A DNA stretch of 10,938 nucleotides from a virus (lineage: Duplodnaviria > Heunggongvirae > Uroviricota > Caudoviricetes). Position 1 is the first letter of the stretch. Each line of letters begins with the position of its first letter. Shown here piece by piece: positions 1-10,938 of this stretch. Under the pieces are notes generated by a model, which saw nothing but the letters and a program-made list of their open reading frames with translations, was not told the DNA's origin and searched no databases. The DNA lies in the IMG/VR virus record IMGVR_UViG_3300029212_000210, positions 1-10,938 of that record; one strand, 5' to 3'. The position numbers and the translations under genes are program-made.

Positions 1-816
1 ACGGTCTATCTTGGGGCAGGTTTAACTGAGCAGGATATTAATTATTTCTGCTTTTACTGGGATGATGTGGTTATTCTAGATAGTGAAAATATTCACTCGA
101 TTGTGCCTAAAGAAAAAGAATTATTAGATAATGGGGTATTACGTAGACCTATTATGAAACATGATGGTATGCTGAATATCCAAGACTTTCCATTTTTATA
201 TACGGAATTTCAGTTGCAGACATTGGATGAATTCAGGAAGAACGAGCCTGCTACTTATTGGCACTTTCATCAAACAGGGGAAAATTTAATATATGATAAA
301 GAACAGAAAACGGCCCTTCAGTTGAGATTGGAGTTGTTTAATGTTCTGAGAATTCCTGATAAAGATGCTCATATAGAAGATATATTACGTTTTAAAGATG
401 ATTGTCAGGATGATCTTAATGCGTTACATGAGTACTTAGAAAAACTGTATACTGAAGTCCTTTATTCTAGAGACCCTAATCTAACGAGGGCTAAAAATTT
501 TTCTTTATTACAAGAGGCTGTAGTTAATCTTGATAAAGCTATCGAAGGGAAATGGAGAAATCCTATCAGAATGGGAGTCAAAGCCAATCCAGAAGTAGAT
601 GGTGGGCAGGTTATGGAATTTTTAAAACCGTTGTACCATGCTGCTATTGCTGGTTATTCAGGCGGTATTATTCCCGGTATGGTTACAGCCTTGGCAACCG
701 CAATTCCAAGTTTTATAAAATTCCAACCAGAATGGGTGGGCTTTAGAGATAAGGGGCCTAAAGAATTAGCTTATCTTACCAAAGCAACGCATAAGGGGTT
801 GATTAAGAGAGCTTAA
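1..816 (+). CDS. Hypothetical protein, 5'-partial. The frame is open from position 1 and the ORF track starts it at a GTG at 67. AT-rich cargo gene in the P2 tin/old hotspot, with a hydrophobic C-terminal segment.
   Basis: Seen: an uninterrupted frame-1 ORF from the window edge to the stop at 814-816. GC is about 35% against about 55-60% in the neighbouring structural genes (counted by eye on sample stretches). Hydrophobic stretch GYSGGIIPGMVTALATAIPSFIKF near the C-terminus. I recognise no named family. Confidence 0.6.
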   Translation, partial: TVYLGAGLTEQDINYFCFYWDDVVILDSENIHSIVPKEKELLDNGVLRRPIMKHDGMLNIQDFPFLYTEFQLQTLDEFRKNEPATYWHFHQTGENLIYDKEQKTALQLRLELFNVLRIPDKDAHIEDILRFKDDCQDDLNALHEYLEKLYTEVLYSRDPNLTRAKNFSLLQEAVVNLDKAIEGKWRNPIRMGVKANPEVDGGQVMEFLKPLYHAAIAGYSGGIIPGMVTALATAIPSFIKFQPEWVGFRDKGPKELAYLTKATHKGLIKRA

Positions 817-918
817 GGCATTTTAATCGATTTTCGCAACTATATTCCTTCGTAACCACACAAGTGCATGACTATGCCGCATGAATCCGCATGATCGTTT
901 GAGGATCGTTTTAGCTGA

Positions 919-4121: not shown

Positions 4122-4955
4122 ATGACAGTGAAAGCAAAGCGTTTTCGCATCGGGGTGGAAGGTGCCACTACCGACGGACGTGAAATCCAGCGTGAATGGC
4201 TGGAACAGATGGCAGCCAGCTACAACCCGGCGGTGTATACCGCGCTGATTAACCTTGAACACATCAAGTCTTATCTGCCGGACAGCACCTTTAACCGCTA
4301 CGGCAAGGTGACGGCGCTGTTTGCTGAAGAAATCACGGAAGGTCCGTTGGCAGGCAAGATGGCGCTGTATGCCGACGTTGAGCCAACGGAATCCCTGGTG
4401 GAACTGGTGAAAAAAGGCCAGAAATTATTCACCTCTATGGAAGTCAGCCCGAAGTTTGCTGATACGGGCAAAGCCTACCTGGTCGGCCTGGCTGCCACTG
4501 ATGACCCTGCCAGTCTGGGCACTGAAATGCTGACATTCAGCGCCAGTGCAGCCCATAACCCACTGGCAAACCGCAAGCAGAATCCTGCCAATCTCTTTAC
4601 CGCTGCAGAGGAAACGGTGATCGAACTGGAAGAAATCCAGGACGACAAACCGTCCCTGTTTGCCCGTGTCACGGCGCTGTTTACCAAAAAAGAGCAGTCC
4701 GATGACGCCCGGTTCGCTGATGTGCATAAGGCCGTGGAGCTGGTCGCCACTGAGCAGCAGAACCTGAGCGCACGCACCGAAAAATCCCTGTCTGAGCAGG
4801 AAGAACGCCTGTCTGAGCTGGAGACAGCCCTGCAGGCACAGCTGACCGCCTTTAACGAACTGGTGGACAAGCTGAGCCATGAAGACAGCCGCCAGGACTA
4901 CCGCCAGCGTGCAACAGGCGGTAACGCCCCCGCTGACACTCTGACCAATTGCTGA
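4122..4955 (+). CDS. O: Capsid scaffolding protein (P2 gpO family)
   Basis: 277-aa ORF, first gene of the rightward head operon. The acidic, coiled-coil-like middle and a C-terminus ending in TNC resemble P2 gpO. Confidence 0.88.
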   Translation: MTVKAKRFRIGVEGATTDGREIQREWLEQMAASYNPAVYTALINLEHIKSYLPDSTFNRYGKVTALFAEEITEGPLAGKMALYADVEPTESLVELVKKGQKLFTSMEVSPKFADTGKAYLVGLAATDDPASLGTEMLTFSASAAHNPLANRKQNPANLFTAAEETVIELEEIQDDKPSLFARVTALFTKKEQSDDARFADVHKAVELVATEQQNLSARTEKSLSEQEERLSELETALQAQLTAFNELVDKLSHEDSRQDYRQRATGGNAPADTLTNC

Positions 4956-4971
4956 TGGAGCACAAAACCTG

Positions 4972-6030
4972 ATGAAGAAGAATACCCGCTTTGCTTTTAA
5001 CGCTTACCTGCAGCAGCTGGCGCGTCTGAACGGTGTGGCTGTTGAAGAACTGTCCAGCAAATTCACCGTAGAGCCGTCTGTACAGCAGACGCTGGAAGAC
5101 CAGATCCAGCAGTCCGCCGCTTTCCTGACGCTGATTAATGTCACCCCGGTGACTGAACAGTCCGGTCAGTTGCTTGGATTGGGGGTTGGCAGCACCATTG
5201 CAGGAACCACTGATACCTCCGCGAAAGAGCGTGAGCCTGTCGATCCGACGCTGATGGTCGATGTGGAATATAAATGCGAGCAGACCAACTTTGACACGGT
5301 GCTGACCTACGCGAAGCTGGACCTGTGGGCGAAGTTTCAGGATTTCCAGGTGCGTATCCGTGACGCCATCGTGAAACGTCAGGCACTGGACCGCATCATG
5401 ATCGGCTTTAACGGCGTGAAGCGTGCGAAAACCTCCAACCGTAGCGAAAACCCGCTGCTGCAGGATGTGAACAAAGGCTGGCTGCAGAAAATCCGTGAGG
5501 ATGCATCGGATCACGTCATGGGCAGCACCACCACGGGCGGTGAAACCACACCGGGTGCGGTGAAAGTCGGGAAAGGTGGCGAATATGCCAACCTGGACGC
5601 AGTGGTGATGGATGCCGTCAATGAGCTTATCGACGTGGTCTACCAGGACGATGACGATCTGGTGGTGATTTGCGGGCGTGAACTGCTGTCTGACAAGTAT
5701 TTCCCGCTGGTCAACAAAGAGCAGGAAAACAGTGAAAAACTGGCTGCCGATATGATCATCAGTCAGAAGCGCATGGGGGGCCTGCAGGCCGTGCGTGCGC
5801 CGTTCTTCCCGCCGAATGCATTGCTGATCACCCGTCTGGATAACCTGTCCATCTACTGGCAGGAAGACACCCGTCGCCGTTCAGTTATCGACAACCCGAA
5901 ACGTGACCGGATTGAAAATTTTGAATCCGTTAACGAAGCCTATGTGGTTGAGGACTACCGCTGCGCCGCACTGGTGGAAAACATCCAGATTGGCGATTTC
6001 AGCGCCGCTGCAGCAGAAACCGGAGCGTAA
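4972..6030 (+). CDS. N: Major capsid protein (P2 gpN family)
   Basis: 352-aa ORF following O. Strong resemblance to my recollection of P2 gpN (for example the FAFNAYL, FTVEPSV and MIGFNGVKRA..SNRS.NPLLQDV stretches). Confidence 0.92.
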   Translation: MKKNTRFAFNAYLQQLARLNGVAVEELSSKFTVEPSVQQTLEDQIQQSAAFLTLINVTPVTEQSGQLLGLGVGSTIAGTTDTSAKEREPVDPTLMVDVEYKCEQTNFDTVLTYAKLDLWAKFQDFQVRIRDAIVKRQALDRIMIGFNGVKRAKTSNRSENPLLQDVNKGWLQKIREDASDHVMGSTTTGGETTPGAVKVGKGGEYANLDAVVMDAVNELIDVVYQDDDDLVVICGRELLSDKYFPLVNKEQENSEKLAADMIISQKRMGGLQAVRAPFFPPNALLITRLDNLSIYWQEDTRRRSVIDNPKRDRIENFESVNEAYVVEDYRCAALVENIQIGDFSAAAAETGA

Positions 6031-6033
6031 TTC

Positions 6034-6684
6034 ATGAGCCTGAGTCCCGCACGGCAGCATCGCCTGCGCGTCCAGGCTGAACAGGCCGCCCGCGAGGGCG
6101 GCAGTGTTCGCCACGCGTCGGGCTATGACCTGATGCTGCTGCAACTGGCGGAAGACCGCCGCCGTCTCAAGGGTGTTCAGTCCACGGTCAAAAAAGCGGA
6201 AATCAAGGTGGAGCTGCTGCCGAAGTACGCCGACTGGGCAGAGGGTGTCCTGGCTGCCGGAGGCGCACAGCAGGATGACGTGCTGATGTACGTGATGCTG
6301 TGGCGCATTGATGCCGGAGATTATGCCGGGGCGCTGGAGATCGGGCGTCACGCCCTGCGTCATGGCTGGGTGATGCCGTTAGGTAACCGCAACGTGCAGA
6401 CCGTGCTGGCAGAGGAAATGGCAGATGCAGCCCAGAGCGCAATGCTTGCCGCCACCGGCTTTGATGCCGATCTGTTGCTGCAGACGCTGGAGCTGACAGA
6501 CGGTATGGATATGCCGGACCAGTCACGGGCGCGTCTGCATAAAGCGATTGGCGCTGTCCTGAGTGAAAACAATCCGGCGTCCGCCCTTAATCATCTCAAC
6601 CATGCGTTACAGCTCGATCCCCGCTGTGGCGTGAAAAAAGACAAACAGCAGCTGGAGCGCAGACTGCGCAATGACAGCCGCTGA
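6034..6684 (+). CDS. M: Terminase small (endonuclease) subunit (P2 gpM family)
   Basis: 216-aa ORF directly after N (3-nt gap). Resembles P2 gpM (for example QDD.LM.VMLWR.D.GD.AGALEI, GVKK). Confidence 0.87.
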   Translation: MSLSPARQHRLRVQAEQAAREGGSVRHASGYDLMLLQLAEDRRRLKGVQSTVKKAEIKVELLPKYADWAEGVLAAGGAQQDDVLMYVMLWRIDAGDYAGALEIGRHALRHGWVMPLGNRNVQTVLAEEMADAAQSAMLAATGFDADLLLQTLELTDGMDMPDQSRARLHKAIGAVLSENNPASALNHLNHALQLDPRCGVKKDKQQLERRLRNDSR

Positions 6685-6704
6685 CAGAACGTGCCCCCGC
6701 GCAC

Positions 6705-6765
6705 GGGCGGCACGGGGTGGCGAAAGGCACTGCCACATCAAAACCCCGTCCACCGCCCTTTATTT
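6705..6765 (+). terminator. GC-rich stem-loop followed by TTTATTT between M and L. Possible attenuator or processing structure.
   Basis: Seen: GGGCGG-c-ACGGGG (6705-6717) pairs with CCCCGT-cca-CCGCCC (6744-6758), with an inner GTGGC/GCCAC hairpin, followed by TTTATTT (6759-6765) just before the L ribosome-binding site. Confidence 0.3.
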
Positions 6766-6779
6766 CAGGAGAAAGCAGC

Positions 6780-7313
6780 ATGAAGTTTGTTGCGCCAGAA
6801 CAGGCACCGGAACAGGCGGAAATCATCAGAAATACGCCGTTCTGGCCTGATGTGGACCTGTCGGAGTTTCGCAGTGTCATGCGCACTGACGGCACGGTGA
6901 CGCAGCCGCGTTTAAAGCAGGTTGCGCTGTCGGCAATTTCGGAGGTCAACGCAGAGCTGTATGAGTTTCGCAGACGCCAGCAGATGCTGGGGTATGCCTC
7001 GCTGGCAGAGATTCCGGCGGAACAGCTGGACGGCAAAAGTGAGCGCATTCAGCACTATTTCAACGCGGTTTACTGCTGGGCACGCGCCATGCTCAACGAA
7101 CGTTACCAGGACTATGACACCACGGCATCCGGTGTGAAGCGGGGCGAGGAACTGGCGGAAGCCAGCGGTGATTTATGGCGTGACGCCCGCTGGGCCATCA
7201 GCCGGGTACTCGAGGCCGGAGAATCAAGACAGCGTATTGCACTGATTTTTGATGTAGGCGTTTCTACCATTTATAGAAAATTTCCGGCAAATAAGATCAA
7301 TGAATCCCCCTGA
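6780..7313 (+). CDS. L: Head completion/stabilisation protein (P2 gpL family)
   Basis: The ORF track starts it at 6717, but an in-frame ATG at 6780 is preceded by AGGAGA and gives 177 aa, comparable to P2 gpL (169 aa). NTPFWPD.DL..FR and RRDARWAISR.L motifs match gpL. The C-terminal 25 aa are diverged. Confidence 0.82.
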   Translation: MKFVAPEQAPEQAEIIRNTPFWPDVDLSEFRSVMRTDGTVTQPRLKQVALSAISEVNAELYEFRRRQQMLGYASLAEIPAEQLDGKSERIQHYFNAVYCWARAMLNERYQDYDTTASGVKRGEELAEASGDLWRDARWAISRVLEAGESRQRIALIFDVGVSTIYRKFPANKINESP

Positions 7314-7361
7314 ATCAGCATTATGTTGATTATCCCTGCAAGCAGACAAATACCGTTATTT

Positions 7362-7379
7362 TGTGTGAATAACGACACA
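7362..7379 (+). promoter_or_regulatory. Candidate Ogr-dependent late promoter (F-promoter equivalent), TGT-N12-ACA dyad
   Basis: Seen: TGTgtgaataacgacACA, centred about 85 bp upstream of the FI-fragment start codon. Same reasoning as the O-promoter dyad. Confidence 0.5.
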
Positions 7380-7455
7380 ACTGCGCTTAGCTGTTTGTCA
7401 GGCACAATCACTTCAACATAGGGCGAAGCCTAATCCAATCAGGAGGTTCGCCACT

Positions 7456-7866
7456 ATGGCTCAGGATTACCACCACGGGGTGCGCGTTGTTGAAGTCAAC
7501 GAAGGCACCCGATCTATTACCACGGTGAGCACCGCCATCGTGGGTATGGTCTGCACGGGCGATGATGCCGATGCAAAAATGTTTCCTCTTAATAAACCCG
7601 TGCTGATCACTGATGTGCTGACTGCCAGCGGTAAAGCGGGTGAGTCCGGTACTCTGGCCCGTTCGCTGGATGCCATCGCTGACCAGGCAAAACCCGTGAC
7701 CATTGTTGTGCGTGTGCCGCAGGGTGAAACGGAAGACGAAACCACGACCAATATCATCGGCGCAGTGACTGCTGAAGGTAAAAAAACAGGTATGAAAGCC
7801 CTGTTAACCGAAGTGCTGGAATGGCGGTATAAAGCGATTCAGAGAAGCGGGGCCAACGATGAGTGA
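7456..7866 (+). pseudogene. FI: Tail sheath (P2 gpFI family) N-terminal fragment, about 122 codons, fused in frame to about 14 unrelated codons that end in an ATGA overlap with the next ORF
   Basis: Seen: 136-aa ORF with an AGGAGG ribosome-binding site. The first ~120 aa match my recollection of the P2 gpFI N-terminus (DYHHGV.V.E.NEGTR, TVSTAIVGMVCT, FPLNKPVLIT, IADQ.KPVT). Full-length FI is about 396 aa. Confidence 0.72.
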
Positions 7867-8959
7867 TAACAACCTGCGTCTGCAGGTCATTCTTAATGCG
7901 GTTGACAAGCTCACCCGCCCATTTCGATCTGCGCAGGCCAGTTCAAGAGAACTGGCTGCTGCTGTCAAAAAATCCCGCGATGCAATAAAGCAGCTTGATC
8001 AGGCCGGGAGCAGTCTGGACAGCTTCCGAAAGCTGCAGGCAGAAAATCAGAAATTAGGCGACAGGCTGAACTATGCCCGCCAGCGTGCAAATTTGCTCAG
8101 TCAGGAACTGGGAGCGATGGGGCCGCCTTCGCAACGTCAGGTTGTTGCTCTGGGCCGTCAACGGCTGGCTGTTCAGCGCCTGGAAGAACGCCAGAAAAAG
8201 CTGCAGCAGCAGACGGCGCTTGTGCGTGCTGAACTGTACCGGGCGGGAATTTCTGCGAAAGACGATGCGGGAGCAACTGCCCGTTTAGCCCGTGAAACAT
8301 CACGTTATAACCAGGAACTTTCGAAACAGGAGGCGCGGCTGAAGCGACTGGGGGAAGCTCAGCGCAGGATGAATGCAGCGCGTGCCAGTTATGCCCGTTC
8401 GCTGGAGGTGCGTGATCGTATTGCAGGTGCCGGAGCCACCACCACGGCTGCAGGGCTGGCAATGGGTGCGCCAGTGATGGCGGCAGTAAAAAGCTATACC
8501 AGCATGGAAGATGCCATGAAAGGTGTGGCAAAGCAGGTCAATGGTCTGCGTGACGATACCCGCGAACCCGCGAAGAAAGAAAGCACCACGGTGAAGCGTA
8601 AGCGCAGGACTAAGAAGCAGAAGAAAGAGCCGGAAGCGAAGCAGGGCGATTACCTGGTGGGTACGGATGAAAACGTGCTGGTACTTAATCGCACCTATGC
8701 CAACCGGAGCAACGCCGAACGGGCGGCAAAAATGCAGTGGGAACGCCTGCAACGCGGCGTTGCGTCATTCTCGCTACAACTGGCGGAAGGGCGGGCAGAT
8801 CTCTACACGGAAATGCCTGTGAAGGTCAGTGGTTTTAAACAGCCGATAGATGATGCGGAATGGACCATTACGACTCTGACACATACCGTCAGCCCGGATA
8901 ACGGTTTTACAACCAGTATTGAACTCGAAGTGAAGATTGATGATCTTGAAATGGAATAA
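7859..8959 (+). pseudogene. In-frame fusion of a tail tape-measure (gpT-like) N-terminal ~235 aa to the tail protein D (gpD-like) C-terminal ~130 aa
   Basis: Seen: 366-aa ORF. The N-terminal part is helical and coiled-coil-like with a Gly/Ala-rich hydrophobic segment, and sits where T should be. The C-terminal part (lysine-rich linker, then ERLQRGVA.FSLQLAEGRADLYTE.PVKVSGFK ... GFTTS.ELEV) matches the gpD C-terminus as I recall it, and sits directly upstream of ogr as D does in P2. Junction near 8560-8580. Confidence 0.62.
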
Positions 8960-8991
8960 AGTGTTCTCAATATTGATATTTTGTGTATCAT

Positions 8992-8997
8992 TACAAT
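8992..8997 (+). promoter_or_regulatory. Possible -10 hexamer (TACAAT) of the ogr promoter
   Basis: Seen: TACAAT about 30 nt upstream of the ogr start in an AT-rich spacer. No convincing -35 at 17 bp. Confidence 0.3.
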
Positions 8998-9027
8998 GAT
9001 TCTGATAGCAAAGGTAGGGATCTGGAT

Positions 9028-9246
9028 ATGATGAATTGTCCAAAGTGTGGTCATGCGGCACACACAAGGAGCAGTTTTCAAGTAACTGAAAGCACCAAAG
9101 AGCGTTACTGCCAGTGCCAAAATATTAACTGCGGGAGCACTTTTGTTACCCATGAAACAGTGGTCCGGTTTATTGTGACACCCGCACTGATTGCTACTGC
9201 TCCTCCACATCCATTGCCAGGTGGTCAGGGGCATATGAATTTTTGA
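9028..9246 (+). CDS. ogr: Late transcription activator Ogr (C4 zinc-finger)
   Basis: Seen: the ATG at 9028 (or 9031) is preceded by AGGTAGGGA and gives 72 aa with the CPKCGH...CQCQNINC zinc-finger pattern, equal in length to P2 Ogr. The ORF-track start at 8983 is a GTG further upstream and is not preferred. Confidence 0.9.
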   Translation: MMNCPKCGHAAHTRSSFQVTESTKERYCQCQNINCGSTFVTHETVVRFIVTPALIATAPPHPLPGGQGHMNF

Positions 9247-9253
9247 GAAAGAG

Positions 9254-9276
9254 AACCTGCTACGGCAGGTTTTTAT
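9254..9276. terminator. Bidirectional rho-independent terminator between convergent ogr and the BRCT-like ORF
   Basis: Seen: AACCTGC (9254-9260), loop TACG, GCAGGTT (9265-9271), then TTTTATT on the plus strand and CUCUUUCUC on the minus strand. It overlaps the minus-strand stop codon. Confidence 0.6.
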
Positions 9277-9755
9277 TCATCTGGGATCTCACCCGTTTCA
9301 AGAAAATGTATAAAGCCAGGCTCATCTATGATGATTGTGCCTTTCATCCTGGCTGCCGATACTTTTGATGGGCCTGCATTGTAACCGCAACAGAGCATCT
9401 GAAGGCTTTGGGTTACAGAGGTTCTTACCGTTAATCCTTGTTCATTCGCCTTATCAACCAATCTTTCTTTATCTGCTTTCTTAAATCCGGTGAAACACAC
9501 ATCGAATGTATTTTTTTTCGGACCAGACTGCTTAGTGAGATGTGAGTAGCTTTCGGGGAGGAATGACGCGCATTCCTGAATGGCTTGTTCTGGTGAATCG
9601 TACTGTTTAAGAATGCGGTCTTTTCGGAAGGTTTTTATTCGATCGGTGTTCTTACAAATGCCCTGTATATGATTTTCGCTATAACTGATGCTCTGTATAG
9701 AGTGAACACCGATACGACCATTTGCATTGATGTAAACAAAGTGAAGTTCTTCCAT
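9273..9755 (-). CDS. Hypothetical protein with a C-terminal BRCT-like domain and a small beta-rich N-terminal domain that is possibly WYL-like
   Basis: Seen: 160-aa ORF with an AGAGG ribosome-binding site 6 nt upstream of the ATG. GC is about 42%, lower than the prophage backbone. The C-terminal ~80 aa (FDVCFTGF..ADKERL..KA.EQGL.V..SV...L..L..G.N.G.SK...A...G..II.E..F..FL) fit the BRCT pattern seen in the LigA C-terminus. The N-terminal motif R.KTFRKDRI resembles the end of WYL domains. Domain calls are from pattern memory only. Confidence 0.65.
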   Translation of the reverse strand: MEELHFVYINANGRIGVHSIQSISYSENHIQGICKNTDRIKTFRKDRILKQYDSPEQAIQECASFLPESYSHLTKQSGPKKNTFDVCFTGFKKADKERLVDKANEQGLTVRTSVTQSLQMLCCGYNAGPSKVSAARMKGTIIIDEPGFIHFLETGEIPDE

Positions 9756-9781
9756 GTGAAACCTCTTTGCATGATTTCAAG

Positions 9782-9820
9782 ATGGCGACAGGCAAGATGG
9801 ACGCAAAAGTCTGTCGCCAT
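9782..9820. repeat. Perfect 10-bp inverted repeat ATGGCGACAG / CTGTCGCCAT separated by 19 bp, overlapping a CAAGATGG direct repeat
   Basis: Seen: arms at 9782-9791 and 9811-9820. CAAGATGG occurs at 9778-9785 and 9793-9800. Located between the BRCT-like ORF start and the ssrA terminator. Confidence 0.45.
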
Positions 9821-9835
9821 TTTGCCGCCACTACC

Positions 9836-9870
9836 AAAGAAAAAGGGGCTACGCTTTCACGTAACCCCTT
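9836..9870 (-). terminator. Rho-independent terminator of ssrA
   Basis: Seen (minus strand): AAGGGG-u-UACG, loop UGAAAG, CGUA-g-CCCC, followed by UUUUUCUUU, starting 9 nt after the tmRNA CCA end. Confidence 0.6.
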
Positions 9871-9878
9871 GATTTATT

Positions 9879-10241
9879 TGGTGGAGCTGGCGGGAGTTGA
9901 ACCCGCGTCCGAAATTCCTACATCCTCGGTACTACATGCTTAGTCAGTCTTTACATTCGCTTGCCAGCTGCGGACGGACACGCCACTAACAAACTAGCCT
10001 GATTAAGTTTTAACGCTTCAACCCCAGGCAGGGCTTCCACGCGATCTCTTTTGGGTTTGACCTCTCTTGATCCCCGTCCTAAGAGCGGAGGCTAGGGAGA
10101 GAGGGCTCTAAGCAGGTTATTAAGCTGCTAAAGCGTAGTTTTCGTCGTTTGCGACTATTTTTTGCGGCTTTTTACGAGGCCAACCGCCCCTCGGCATGCA
10201 CCTTGGGTTTCGCAAATCCCGTCGAATCCAGAATCAGCCCC
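9879..10241 (-). ncRNA. ssrA: tmRNA (SsrA), complete, 363 nt
   Basis: Seen: the reverse complement runs from GGGGCTGATTCTGGATTCGACGGG to GTTCAACTCCCGCCAGCTCCACCA and includes the tag-encoding stretch GCAAACGACGAAAACTACGCTTTAGCAGCTTAA (ANDENYALAA). It matches E. coli ssrA as I recall it. Confidence 0.97.
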
Positions 10242-10255
10242 AATGTGTAAAGGTA

Positions 10256-10261
10256 AGTATA
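10256..10261 (-). promoter_or_regulatory. Possible -10 hexamer (TATACT) of the ssrA promoter
   Basis: Seen: TATACT on the minus strand, 14 nt upstream of the mature tmRNA 5' end. Established: tmRNA is made as a precursor with a short 5' leader. No convincing -35. Confidence 0.3.
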
Positions 10262-10455
10262 CCAGATTTATGAGCGCCATGACCAGCCTCAATGGCGTTA
10301 TCGTTAAAGATTTAGCACCCATGTAGCCTGATTTTTATTCGATTAAGCAATGGGATGGCAACATTTGTGTCGGATGTGATAGCCAATAAGATGTTCATTC
10401 GCGCCGCCGGAGAGGGAGGCGCGGTGAGGAACTGGTCAATAATTGGAGTGCAGGT

Positions 10456-10938
10456 TTAACGGTGGGCGTTTTTCATGATACGCGCTTTATCCACCTGCCA
10501 TTCGCGCTCTTTGATATCTGAACGTTTATCGTGCTGTTTCTTACCTTTGGCGACGCCGATTTTCACTTTGCACCAGGCATTTTTCCAGTACAGGGAGAGC
10601 GCCACTACGGTATAGCCTTCTCGATTGACGCGACCGTACAATGAGTCCAGTTCGCGCTGGTTGAGAAGTAACTTGCGGGTACGGGTAGGATCGCACACCA
10701 CATGCGTGGAGGCCACTGCCATTGGCGTGATGTTTGCGCCAAACAGGAACGCTTCTCCGTCACGCAGAAGGACATAGCTGTCGCTGATATTGGCTTTTCC
10801 TGCGCGCAGGGATTTAACTTCCCAGCCTTGCAGGGCAAGTCCCGCTTCGAACTCTTCTTCGATAAAGTATTCGTGACGGGCGCGCTTGTTAAGCGCGATG
10901 GTCGCTGAACCAGGTTTATGTGCTTTTTTCTTCGTCAT
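10456..10938 (-). CDS. smpB: SsrA-binding protein SmpB, complete. The start codon is the last 3 nt of the window.
   Basis: 160-aa ORF that matches E. coli SmpB as I recall it, upstream of ssrA on the same strand, which is the conserved arrangement. Confidence 0.96.

What the first reader, a model, noticed from the sequence alone, without database searches (positions are those of the whole stretch)
9273..9755. Small BRCT-like protein inserted between ogr and the ssrA attachment end
Seen: a 160-aa ORF with a good ribosome-binding site, lower GC than the phage backbone, convergent with ogr and sharing a bidirectional terminator with it. The C-terminal half fits a BRCT fold pattern. The N-terminal half is beta-rich with a TFRKDRI motif reminiscent of WYL ligand-sensing domains. 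Established: in P2 the attachment site follows ogr within about 150 bp with no gene in between, so a gene here is an accessory insertion (moron) or the remnant of another integrated element. BRCT domains bind phosphorylated proteins or DNA ends. Inference: a candidate sensor or regulator involved in phage-host or phage-phage conflict. I know of no described standalone WYL-BRCT protein.
Basis: partly seen in the sequence, partly recalled or inferred. Interest (0 to 1): 0.7.

Follow-up and report, generated by a model that had tools for sequence, protein, structure and literature searches.

The report
WYL–BRCT accessory gene of P2-like prophage
The 160-codon gene between ogr and ssrA is a real, intact accessory gene of P2-like prophages; its small protein joins a single-stranded-DNA-sensing WYL domain to a DNA-end-binding BRCT domain, and it belongs to a widespread, database-known family that nobody has characterised and that usually sits next to the phage repressor gene.

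The parts
9273..9755 (-). Coding sequence of the 160-aa WYL-BRCT protein (stop codon 9273-9275)
   Evidence: ORF list; full-length match to phrog_2561, E 2.5e-77; 122 homologues; AlphaFold2 model with pLDDT 91.6
9594..9755 (-). WYL-type Sm-like beta-barrel, aa 1-54 (five strands). Ligand-site residues are Y8, H29, R44 and R47.
9504..9593 (-). Helices (aa 55-73) and a flexible linker (about aa 74-84) of variable length between the two domains
   Evidence: pLDDT falls to 69 in the aa 71-80 block, and pTM is only 0.52 for the whole model. The linker has insertions and deletions in alignment A1.
9276..9503 (-). BRCT domain, aa 85-160, of the LigA/RFC1 class. Its 5'-phosphate pocket is T89, G90, K96, K131.
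9762..9767 (-). Ribosome-binding site AAGAGG, 6 nt upstream of the ATG
   Evidence: Read from the sequence
9254..9271 (.). Hairpin shared by the convergent ogr and WYL-BRCT genes. It is a strong terminator for ogr and a weaker one for the ORF.
9843..9870 (-). Phage-supplied terminator directly after the rebuilt ssrA 3' end (12-bp stem, then UUUUU)
   Evidence: -19.8 kcal/mol, z -5.7. Identical in phage Cartapus and near-identical in MLG42.
9811..9830 (-). TGGCGGCA-AAA-TGGCGACAG repeat pair in the 5' leader of the gene; putative integrase arm-type sites (P' arm)
   Evidence: The same motif pair lies on the other side of the attP core in Cartapus and MLG42. The assignment as integrase sites is my inference.
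9879..9923 (-). att core: the last 45 nt of ssrA, identical between the window and the attP of Cartapus and MLG42
   Evidence: Alignment A2. Prophage-free E. coli genomes match the window only from about 9874-9879 onward.
9028..9246 (+). ogr (late-gene activator), the convergent neighbour
   Evidence: Pfam Ogr_Delta, E 9e-21
9879..10241 (-). ssrA (tmRNA), upstream of the gene and in the same orientation
   Evidence: ARAGORN; Rfam tmRNA 295.8 bits

Best explanation
The gene is an accessory (moron-type) gene of P2-like temperate phages (Peduoviridae). It encodes a small protein with no enzymatic or effector domain, made of two nucleic-acid-recognition modules on a flexible linker. The N-terminal WYL barrel is the domain that binds single-stranded DNA in PafBC, DriD and CapW. 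The C-terminal single BRCT domain belongs to the LigA/RFC1 class, whose T-G...K/R...K pocket grips a 5' phosphate at a DNA end or junction. Shown: both folds, conservation of both ligand sites, phage carriage, and accessory status. Inferred: the two modules together recognise ssDNA next to a 5'-phosphorylated duplex end, that is a nick, gap, resected end or cohesive end. The protein would then act by binding or capping such a structure rather than by catalysis. Also inferred: the gene belongs to the lysogeny side of the phage. It sits directly 3' of the repressor gene in many lineages. In the E. coli type it lies across attP from cI-int, so in a lysogen it sits downstream of ssrA and its terminator. 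It would therefore be made in lysogens. There it would bind DNA ends or junctions of incoming or replicating foreign DNA and interfere with their circularisation, ligation or repair. That makes it a prophage-encoded exclusion or defence function.
For: Folds. BRCT class and 5'-phosphate tetrad: alignment to yeast Rfc1, with residues named in PMC9359705, and conservation. WYL ligand-site residues: the beta1 Tyr, the WYL-triplet Tyr/His and the beta4/5 Arg pair that were singled out for mutagenesis in PafBC (PMC6789036) are conserved here. ssDNA is the ligand of the structurally closest WYL domains (CapW-ssDNA 9c5g, DriD-ssDNA 7tzv). Phage carriage: all 28 phage records are P2-like except one Pseudomonas record. 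Accessory status: 176/5426 E. coli genomes; absent from P2, SopEPhi, SEN8 and Klebsiella phi14.1 at the same slot; low GC. Lysogeny-module placement: the gene is immediately 3' of the repressor gene and on the same strand in PHL101 and PV94, and one gene after it in Burkholderia FUB5a. At least 12 of 50 genome loci also have a cI-type repressor directly upstream. Of 34 same-strand upstream neighbours, 9 match Phage_CI_repr and 8 match HTH_3, 7 match Peptidase_S24. The repressors belong to unrelated families while the WYL-BRCT protein stays about 35-40% identical, which argues for a generic DNA target rather than a repressor-specific partner. Downstream neighbours are variable and defence-like: AbiTii, KAP NTPase/PDC-S20, PDC-S39, GmrSD_N, HNH. 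The gene is intact in a prophage that has lost most tail genes. Some longer relatives carry an N-terminal membrane anchor.
Against: There is no experimental evidence of any kind. No known defence model matches beyond the shared BRCT or WYL domains. The protein has no effector domain, so any exclusion mechanism must work by binding alone. The gene's position is more fixed (right after cI) than is usual for swapped defence cargo. No sigma-70 promoter was found between the ssrA terminator and the start codon, so expression in E. coli lysogens is unproven and may depend on read-through. In 20 more distant loci the neighbours are a mix of mobile-element and housekeeping genes. The model's inter-domain geometry is uncertain (pTM 0.52).
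Confidence: 0.4

Rival explanations
1. DNA-damage sensor that tunes the lysis-lysogeny switch. The WYL domain senses ssDNA produced by damage and the BRCT anchors the protein at the lesion or contacts a partner. The protein then promotes or restrains prophage induction independently of RecA/LexA.
For: The closest WYL structures are ssDNA-activated damage regulators (PafBC, DriD, CapW). The gene is adjacent to and co-oriented with cI in many phages. A 2026 preprint independently notes cI plus BRCT-protein modules replacing quorum-sensing modules in Roseobacter prophages and assumes they sense damage (PMC13345283).
Against: The protein has no HTH or other output domain. The neighbouring repressors belong to unrelated families, including self-cleaving S24 types that need no extra sensor. 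Cartapus also carries a DinI-like gene. From my own knowledge, not tested here, this resembles the 186 Tum SOS module. In the E. coli type, integration separates the gene from cI-int.
Confidence: 0.25
2. Helper of the phage's own DNA metabolism. It binds the phage's cohesive ends, nicks or replication intermediates to protect them from host nucleases, to recruit host LigA, or to compete with RecFOR. It would act like a non-catalytic ligase subunit B.
Against: The gene is dispensable: it is absent from P2 and from the nearest ssrA-integrating relatives. It lies on the lysogeny side, not among the replication genes. No catalytic ligase partner is encoded nearby.
Confidence: 0.15
3. It is an enzyme, a DNA ligase or an exonuclease, as RefSeq, PHROGs and the Cartapus record annotate it.
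For: phrog_2561 is labelled 'DNA ligase'. RefSeq labels 500465-1 and PHL101 genes 'DNA ligase' and Cartapus 'putative exonuclease'. There are weak NCBIfam hits to LigA and to a DEDDh exonuclease.
Against: All those hits cover only the C-terminal BRCT part of the enzyme profiles: LigA positions 549-650 of 652, and DEDDh positions 229-307 of 331. Their scores of 11-26 bits are far below the cut-offs of 369-1051. A 160-aa protein with a WYL barrel and one BRCT has no adenylation, OB, zinc-finger, HhH or DEDD domain.
Confidence: 0.02
4. It is a host gene, or the remnant of a different element at the ssrA integration hotspot, functionally tied to tmRNA/SmpB.
For: It lies 123 bp downstream of ssrA on the same strand.
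Against: It is present in only 176 of 5426 E. coli genomes and always with the P2-like prophage. It is part of the packaged genomes of Cartapus and MLG42, and the sequence from the ssrA 3' end to the gene is phage DNA. Elsewhere it sits beside cI, far from any ssrA.
Confidence: 0.02

Closest known systems
wHTH-WYL-WCX regulators (PafBC, DriD, BrxR, CapW)
   Different: This protein has no helix-turn-helix and no WCX domain. It starts directly with the barrel and ends in a BRCT domain. It therefore cannot act as a conventional transcription factor and is not a member of that family.
Single DNA-binding BRCT domains of bacterial NAD+-ligase LigA and clamp-loader subunit RFC1 (also PARP1)
   Same: These are the best sequence matches of the family profile (1dgs LigA 4.5e-5; RFC1 2ebu, 7tfh, 2k6g about 6e-5 to 1e-4). 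The fold is the same. The 5'-phosphate site T-G...R/K...K is fully conserved.
   Different: Here the BRCT stands with a WYL barrel only, without the ligase or AAA+ machinery. DNA binding has not been measured.
PHROG 2561 / NCBI 'BRCT domain-containing protein' (for example Mannheimia phage PHL101 ORF34, Escherichia phage Cartapus gp32, 500465-1 gp44)
   Same: This is the family the window protein belongs to: a full-length match at E 2.5e-77 and 98-99% identity to the Escherichia phage proteins.
   Different: Nothing differs structurally. The family has no assigned function, and its 'DNA ligase' and 'exonuclease' labels are annotation carry-over from the BRCT domain.
Accessory and lysogenic-conversion genes of P2-like phages (P2 old, tin, fun/Z; defence hotspots between gpA and gpQ, downstream of gpL, int-att, and int-primase)
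   Same: It is a low-GC, dispensable gene in a variable slot of an otherwise conserved genome. In repressor-adjacent loci it is followed by candidate defence genes. A 2026 survey lists minor P2 hotspots between int and att and between int and the primase (PMC13586616).
   Different: The att-ogr slot used in E. coli is not among the hotspots described there. The gene is not recognised by defence-finder models, and no anti-phage activity has been shown.
PADLOC candidate PDC-S48
   Same: It shares a related C-terminal BRCT domain (E 1.8e-7, profile positions 335-406 of 411).
   Different: Only the BRCT aligns. The first ~330 positions of the PDC-S48 profile have no counterpart, so this protein is not a member.

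Membership tests
BRCT domain (Pfam PF00533) | Match to the Pfam profile at or above the gathering score | tested here: inconclusive
   The window protein scores 19.5 bits against a cut-off of 21.3 (E 1e-3, aa 84-145). 34 of 49 close family members and 45 of 56 longer relatives match at the E-value limits of those searches (0.01 and 0.001).
BRCT domain (Pfam PF00533) | Fold of a four-stranded parallel sheet flanked by three helices | tested here: met
LigA/RFC1/PARP1 class of single, DNA-binding BRCT domains | Closest sequence relatives are LigA and RFC1 BRCT domains | tested here: met
   The profile search of PDB sequences puts LigA (1dgs, 1l7b) and RFC1 (2ebu, 7tfh, 2k6g) on top. NCBIfam hits map to the LigA C-terminus.
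LigA/RFC1/PARP1 class of single, DNA-binding BRCT domains | 5'-phosphate site: TG motif plus two basic residues (yeast Rfc1 T166, G167, R174, K209) | tested here: met
   These residues align to T89, G90, K96 and K131 (residues named in PMC9359705). Conservation in 49 homologues is 49, 49, 47 K + 2 R, and 49.
LigA/RFC1/PARP1 class of single, DNA-binding BRCT domains | Binds 5'-phosphorylated DNA ends or junctions | not testable with these tools
   This needs binding assays with purified protein.
WYL domain (Pfam PF13280) | Match to the Pfam WYL profile | tested here: inconclusive
   The window protein has no hit at E<=10. However, 4/49 close homologues (best 1.5e-5) and 23/56 longer relatives (best 1.2e-8) match. 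PADLOC WYL models match 31/56. One homologue carries a precomputed PF13280 hit (P0097).
WYL domain (Pfam PF13280) | Sm-like five-stranded barrel most similar to solved WYL domains | tested here: met
WYL domain (Pfam PF13280) | Ligand-site residues: Tyr/His in beta1, Tyr of the WYL triplet, two Arg in the beta4/beta5 loop | tested here: met
   Y8 is 49/49. Position 29 is H in 26 and Y in 21. R44 is 44 R + 4 K. R47 is 42/49. The loop aligns with PafBC 'NFRLDRV'. The residue roles come from PMC6789036.
WYL domain (Pfam PF13280) | Binds ssDNA or another nucleic-acid ligand | not testable with these tools
   This needs binding assays.
wHTH-WYL-WCX transcription factors (PafBC/DriD/BrxR/CapW) | [quoted passage not shown] | tested here: not met
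   The protein begins with barrel strand 1 at residue 3. No HTH family matches it or its homologues.
wHTH-WYL-WCX transcription factors (PafBC/DriD/BrxR/CapW) | C-terminal WCX dimerisation domain | tested here: not met
   The C-terminal domain is a BRCT.
NAD+-dependent DNA ligase (label used by PHROGs and RefSeq) | Adenylation, OB, zinc-finger and HhH domains | tested here: not met
   Only LigA profile positions 549-650 of 652 are matched, at 19.6 bits against a cut-off of 444. The 160-aa model holds only a WYL barrel and a BRCT.
P2-type accessory ('moron') genes | Present in some and absent from other closely related phages at the same slot, with deviant base composition | tested here: met
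   At the att-ogr slot, P2 and SopEPhi have no gene, SEN8 has a 48-aa ORF and Klebsiella phi14.1 a 73-aa ORF. Cartapus, 500465-1 and MLG42 have the WYL-BRCT gene there. GC is 41.6% against 55.6%.
P2-type accessory ('moron') genes | Expressed from the prophage in lysogens | not testable with these tools
   No promoter was found between the ssrA terminator and the ATG. Transcript data are needed.
PADLOC PDC-S48 defence candidate | Full-length match to the PDC-S48 profile | tested here: not met
   Only profile positions 335-406 of 411, the BRCT, are matched.

The most novel reading that the evidence does not exclude
WYL-BRCT proteins are a distinct class of stand-alone sensors for ssDNA next to a 5'-phosphorylated duplex end. 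P2-like prophages would make them alongside their repressor. By simply capping such junctions they would do one of two things. Either they block circularisation or ligation of superinfecting cos-ended or nicked phage DNA, which would be an immunity mechanism with no enzyme or toxin. Or they gate RecA loading at gaps and so set the threshold for prophage induction.
Probability: 0.15. Interest if true: 0.75.

Novelty: new variant of a known kind. Interest (0 to 1): 0.48.

Why it matters
Characterised WYL domains include ssDNA sensors wired to a DNA-binding transcription-factor module. Single BRCT domains of the LigA/RFC1 type are known as 5'-phosphate DNA-end readers inside large enzymes. Here the two readers are joined with nothing else, in a family with thousands of representatives that temperate phages keep next to their repressor gene. 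If the protein really recognises gapped, nicked or cohesive-ended DNA in lysogens, it could reveal either a binding-only exclusion mechanism or a RecA-independent input into the lysis-lysogeny decision of P2-like phages. The practical gain is smaller but certain: the 'DNA ligase' and 'exonuclease' labels on this family in phage databases are wrong and should be replaced.

Tried and rejected
1. Literature searches for BRCT with P2-like prophages and for BRCT with anti-phage defence found nothing. A BRCT/WYL/phage search found only the 2014 architecture list. A broader search found one 2026 preprint that mentions cI/BRCT modules in passing.
2. I looked for informative domain fusions in 56 longer relatives. 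The extra regions (membrane anchors, coiled coils, a ~230-aa C-terminal extension) match no Pfam family.
3. PADLOC shows only BRCT-level similarity to PDC-S48 and WYL-level similarity to Cas-associated WYL models. No defence system membership follows.
4. I found no conserved partner gene. Downstream neighbours are all different.
5. The promoter scan found no sigma-70 site on the gene's strand between the ssrA terminator and the ATG. By eye I saw no Ogr-type TGT-N12-ACA dyad either.
6. The 87-nt leader folds only marginally better than shuffles (z -2.45) and its hairpin is not conserved in MLG42. I do not claim a regulatory RNA. Rfam finds only tmRNA.
7. The AlphaFold-database fold library was unavailable. 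The viral library returned LigA-type BRCTs and one full-length 162-aa look-alike in Vibrio phage SSP002, with no functional information.
8. I searched for the window's exact deleted prophage in complete E. coli genomes. None has the junction.
9. In 20 distant loci without P2 markers the context is a mix of integrases, repressors and housekeeping genes, so no general rule emerged.
10. The ligase/exonuclease, host-gene and ssrA-linked readings were rejected (see the rival explanations).

Full report
OBSERVATION. An AAGAGG ribosome-binding site lies at 9762-9767, 6 nt from the ATG. The ORF's GC is 41.6% against 55.6% for the structural genes of the prophage. It converges on ogr (9028..9246 +; Pfam Ogr_Delta). 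The 26-nt gap between the two stop codons holds an 18-nt hairpin, 9254-9271. On the ogr strand it folds at -17.7 kcal/mol (z -4.8) and is followed by UUUUUAUU. On the ORF strand it folds at -10.8 kcal/mol (z -3.8) with a poor U-tract. 'Bidirectional terminator' is therefore fair but asymmetric. ssrA is at 9879..10241 (-) and smpB at 10456..10938 (-). The gene is real: 122 homologues in the first search and 2606 cluster representatives in the exhaustive search, 213 of them at E<=1e-30.

DOMAINS. An AlphaFold2 model built on 49 homologues has mean pLDDT 91.6. It shows a five-stranded barrel (aa 3-52), two helices, a soft linker (pLDDT 69 around aa 71-80) and an alpha/beta domain from aa 85. The pTM of 0.52 says the two domains are not fixed relative to each other.

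In yeast Rfc1, T166, G167, R174 and K209 form the 5'-phosphate site (PMC9359705). In the alignment these fall on T89, G90, K96 and K131. These positions are conserved in 49/49, 49/49, 47 K + 2 R, and 49/49 homologues.

The PafBC structure paper singled out three conserved elements of the WYL domain for mutagenesis: a beta1 Tyr/His, the Tyr of the WYL triplet, and two Arg in the beta4/beta5 loop (PMC6789036). All three are kept here: Y8 in 49/49, H/Y29 in 47/49, and R44 and R47 in 44 and 42 of 49.

WHAT IT IS NOT. The labels 'DNA ligase' (PHROG 2561; RefSeq for 500465-1 and PHL101) and 'putative exonuclease' (Cartapus) come from the BRCT tail of LigA and of a DEDDh exonuclease. The matches cover only the last ~100 profile positions, at 11-26 bits against cut-offs of 369-1051. 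There is no catalytic domain. There is also no HTH or WCX domain, so it is not a PafBC/BrxR-type regulator.

WHERE IT LIVES. The window is E. coli DNA; its 8900-10300 segment is 100% identical to strain ETEC4089. The gene is in 176 of 5426 complete E. coli genomes. In 165 genomes it has the ogr-gene-ssrA arrangement. The other genomes share only ssrA.

It is part of packaged phage genomes. In Cartapus the circular order is cI - int - RES-like gene - attP - WYL-BRCT, with ogr and D convergent. MLG42 has the same order without the RES-like gene.

Aligning the window with both phages shows three things. The att core is the last 45 nt of ssrA (9879-9923). The phage supplies the rebuilt ssrA end. 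The phage also supplies a strong terminator (9843-9870), a TGGCGGCA/TGGCGACA repeat pair that also occurs on the other side of the core (probably Int arm sites; my inference), and then the gene.

P2 has nothing between ogr and attP. Neither does SopEPhi. SEN8 and Klebsiella phi14.1 have only a 48-aa and a 73-aa ORF there. It is not a remnant of another element, and it has no tie to ssrA.

In Mannheimia PHL101 and Vibrio PV94 the gene lies directly 3' of the repressor gene on the same strand. In Burkholderia phages it follows one gene after the repressor gene. Across one-genome-per-species contigs, 50 loci were recovered. Six have the ogr/D arrangement. Seventeen have a cI-type repressor within 2 kb upstream on the same strand, at least 12 of them immediately adjacent. 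At least 22 carry P2-type markers.

Of 34 same-strand upstream neighbours, 9 match the 186-type Phage_CI_repr family, 8 match HTH_3 and 7 match Peptidase_S24. The gene that follows the WYL-BRCT gene differs from locus to locus and is often defence-like: AbiTii, KAP NTPase/PDC-S20, PDC-S39, GmrSD_N, HNH. Twenty distant loci without P2 markers have mixed mobile and housekeeping neighbours.

HOW IT PROBABLY WORKS. Shown: two nucleic-acid-reading modules with intact ligand sites, no effector, phage carriage, and accessory status. Inferred: the WYL barrel binds ssDNA and the BRCT grips a 5' phosphate. The protein would then recognise ssDNA next to a 5'-phosphorylated duplex end (gap, nick, resected end or cohesive end) and act by occupancy.

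Its home is the lysogeny side of the phage. The repressors beside it are from unrelated families while the protein itself stays about 35-40% identical. I therefore favour a generic DNA target over a repressor-specific partnership. My preferred role is a lysogen-expressed exclusion or defence function (confidence 0.4).

The main rival is a DNA-damage sensor feeding the lysis-lysogeny switch (0.25). It is attractive because the closest WYL proteins are exactly such sensors, and a 2026 preprint assumes this for cI/BRCT modules in Roseobacter prophages. It is weakened by three points: there is no output domain, some neighbouring repressors are the self-cleaving S24 type, and Cartapus has a separate DinI-like gene. 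From my own knowledge, untested here, that gene recalls the 186 Tum SOS module.

A helper role in the phage's own DNA handling (0.15) is suggested by likeness to LigA and to the B subunits of split phage ligases. The gene is dispensable, however, and is not in the replication module.

Expression in E. coli lysogens is unproven. I found no sigma-70 promoter between the ssrA terminator and the ATG. Transcription may therefore depend on read-through from ssrA in the prophage, or from int in the circular form.

NOVELTY. The family is already catalogued (PHROG 2561; NCBI 'BRCT domain-containing protein'). The WYL+BRCT fusion was listed among WYL architectures in 2014 (PMC4012209). The claim that none is described is therefore overstated. 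I found no functional study.

I rate it a new variant of a known kind: a WYL sensor whose partner module is a DNA-end-reading BRCT instead of an HTH. Interest is moderate (0.48). The domain call is solid, the family is large and sits in an interesting place, and clean experiments are obvious. Nothing here is yet surprising to a specialist, and the function remains inferred.

SIDE OBSERVATIONS. The prophage in the window is heavily deleted, yet this gene is intact. Details are in the list of things noticed in passing.

Noticed in passing
window 7859-8959 (+), junction near 8556: This ORF looks like gene D but is a fusion. Its first 234 aa are the N-terminus of the tape-measure protein T and its last 133 aa are the C-terminus of D. 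The rest of T, all of U and most of D are deleted in frame. No complete E. coli genome has this junction.
   Followed up: partly
window 6717-7313 (+) and 7456-7866 (+): There are two more fusion ORFs. One joins head-completion protein L to the HTH_7 end of an invertase/resolvase. The other joins the N-terminus of the tail sheath to the C-terminal end of GpE. The lysis, baseplate, tail-fibre, sheath and tube genes are missing, so the prophage is defective. That all three junctions are in frame is odd.
   Followed up: partly
window 1-900, ORF 67-816 (+): A very low-GC stretch (34-42%) lies beside the portal gene Q (1167-2216 -). This is the known gpA-gpQ (old/tin) defence hotspot of P2-like phages. 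It holds a 249-aa DUF6236 ORF that matches profile positions 91-319 only, so it may be truncated. No PADLOC model matches it.
   Followed up: partly
window 9811-9830 and L002 (Cartapus) / L004 (MLG42) on the other side of the attP core: TGGCGGCA/TGGCGACA direct-repeat pairs flank the 45-nt ssrA-derived core on both arms. They are probably integrase arm-type binding sites. One pair lies inside the 5' leader of the WYL-BRCT gene, so Int binding could affect its expression.
   Followed up: no
L002 (Cartapus) 4508-5713: A 401-aa gene annotated as a RES/NAD+-binding protein sits between int and attP. This is the minor 'integrase-att' defence hotspot described for P2-like phages in 2026 (PMC13586616). 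No PADLOC model matches it.
   Followed up: partly
L035 (Aeromonas veronii) 6527-8314; L032 (Hafnia paralvei) 6468-7922; other loci: In prophages with the order cI - WYL-BRCT - X - int, the X position holds different candidate defence genes: PDC-S39 (E 2e-214), a KAP NTPase/PDC-S20 PifA-like protein (E 3e-82), AbiTii, GmrSD_N and HNH proteins. The slot behaves as a cargo hotspot inside the lysogeny operon.
   Followed up: partly
L004 (Yersinia phage MLG42) 4514-4777: The record annotates an 84-aa hypothetical protein on the strand opposite to where tblastn places a 92%-identical ogr. The ogr gene seems to be mis-called there.
   Followed up: no
P0137, P0167, P0174, P0153, P0176, P0182: Longer relatives attach the WYL-BRCT module to other parts: an N-terminal membrane anchor plus coiled coil, C-terminal transmembrane segments, or a conserved ~230-aa C-terminal domain of unknown function (compare phrog_36782). 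None of these extra parts matches Pfam.
   Followed up: partly
BFVD entry H9EB15, Vibrio phage SSP002: A 162-aa 'putative DNA ligase' aligns over the full length of the model. SSP002 is, from my recollection, a virulent siphophage (not checked here). If so, the architecture is not confined to temperate P2-like phages.
   Followed up: no
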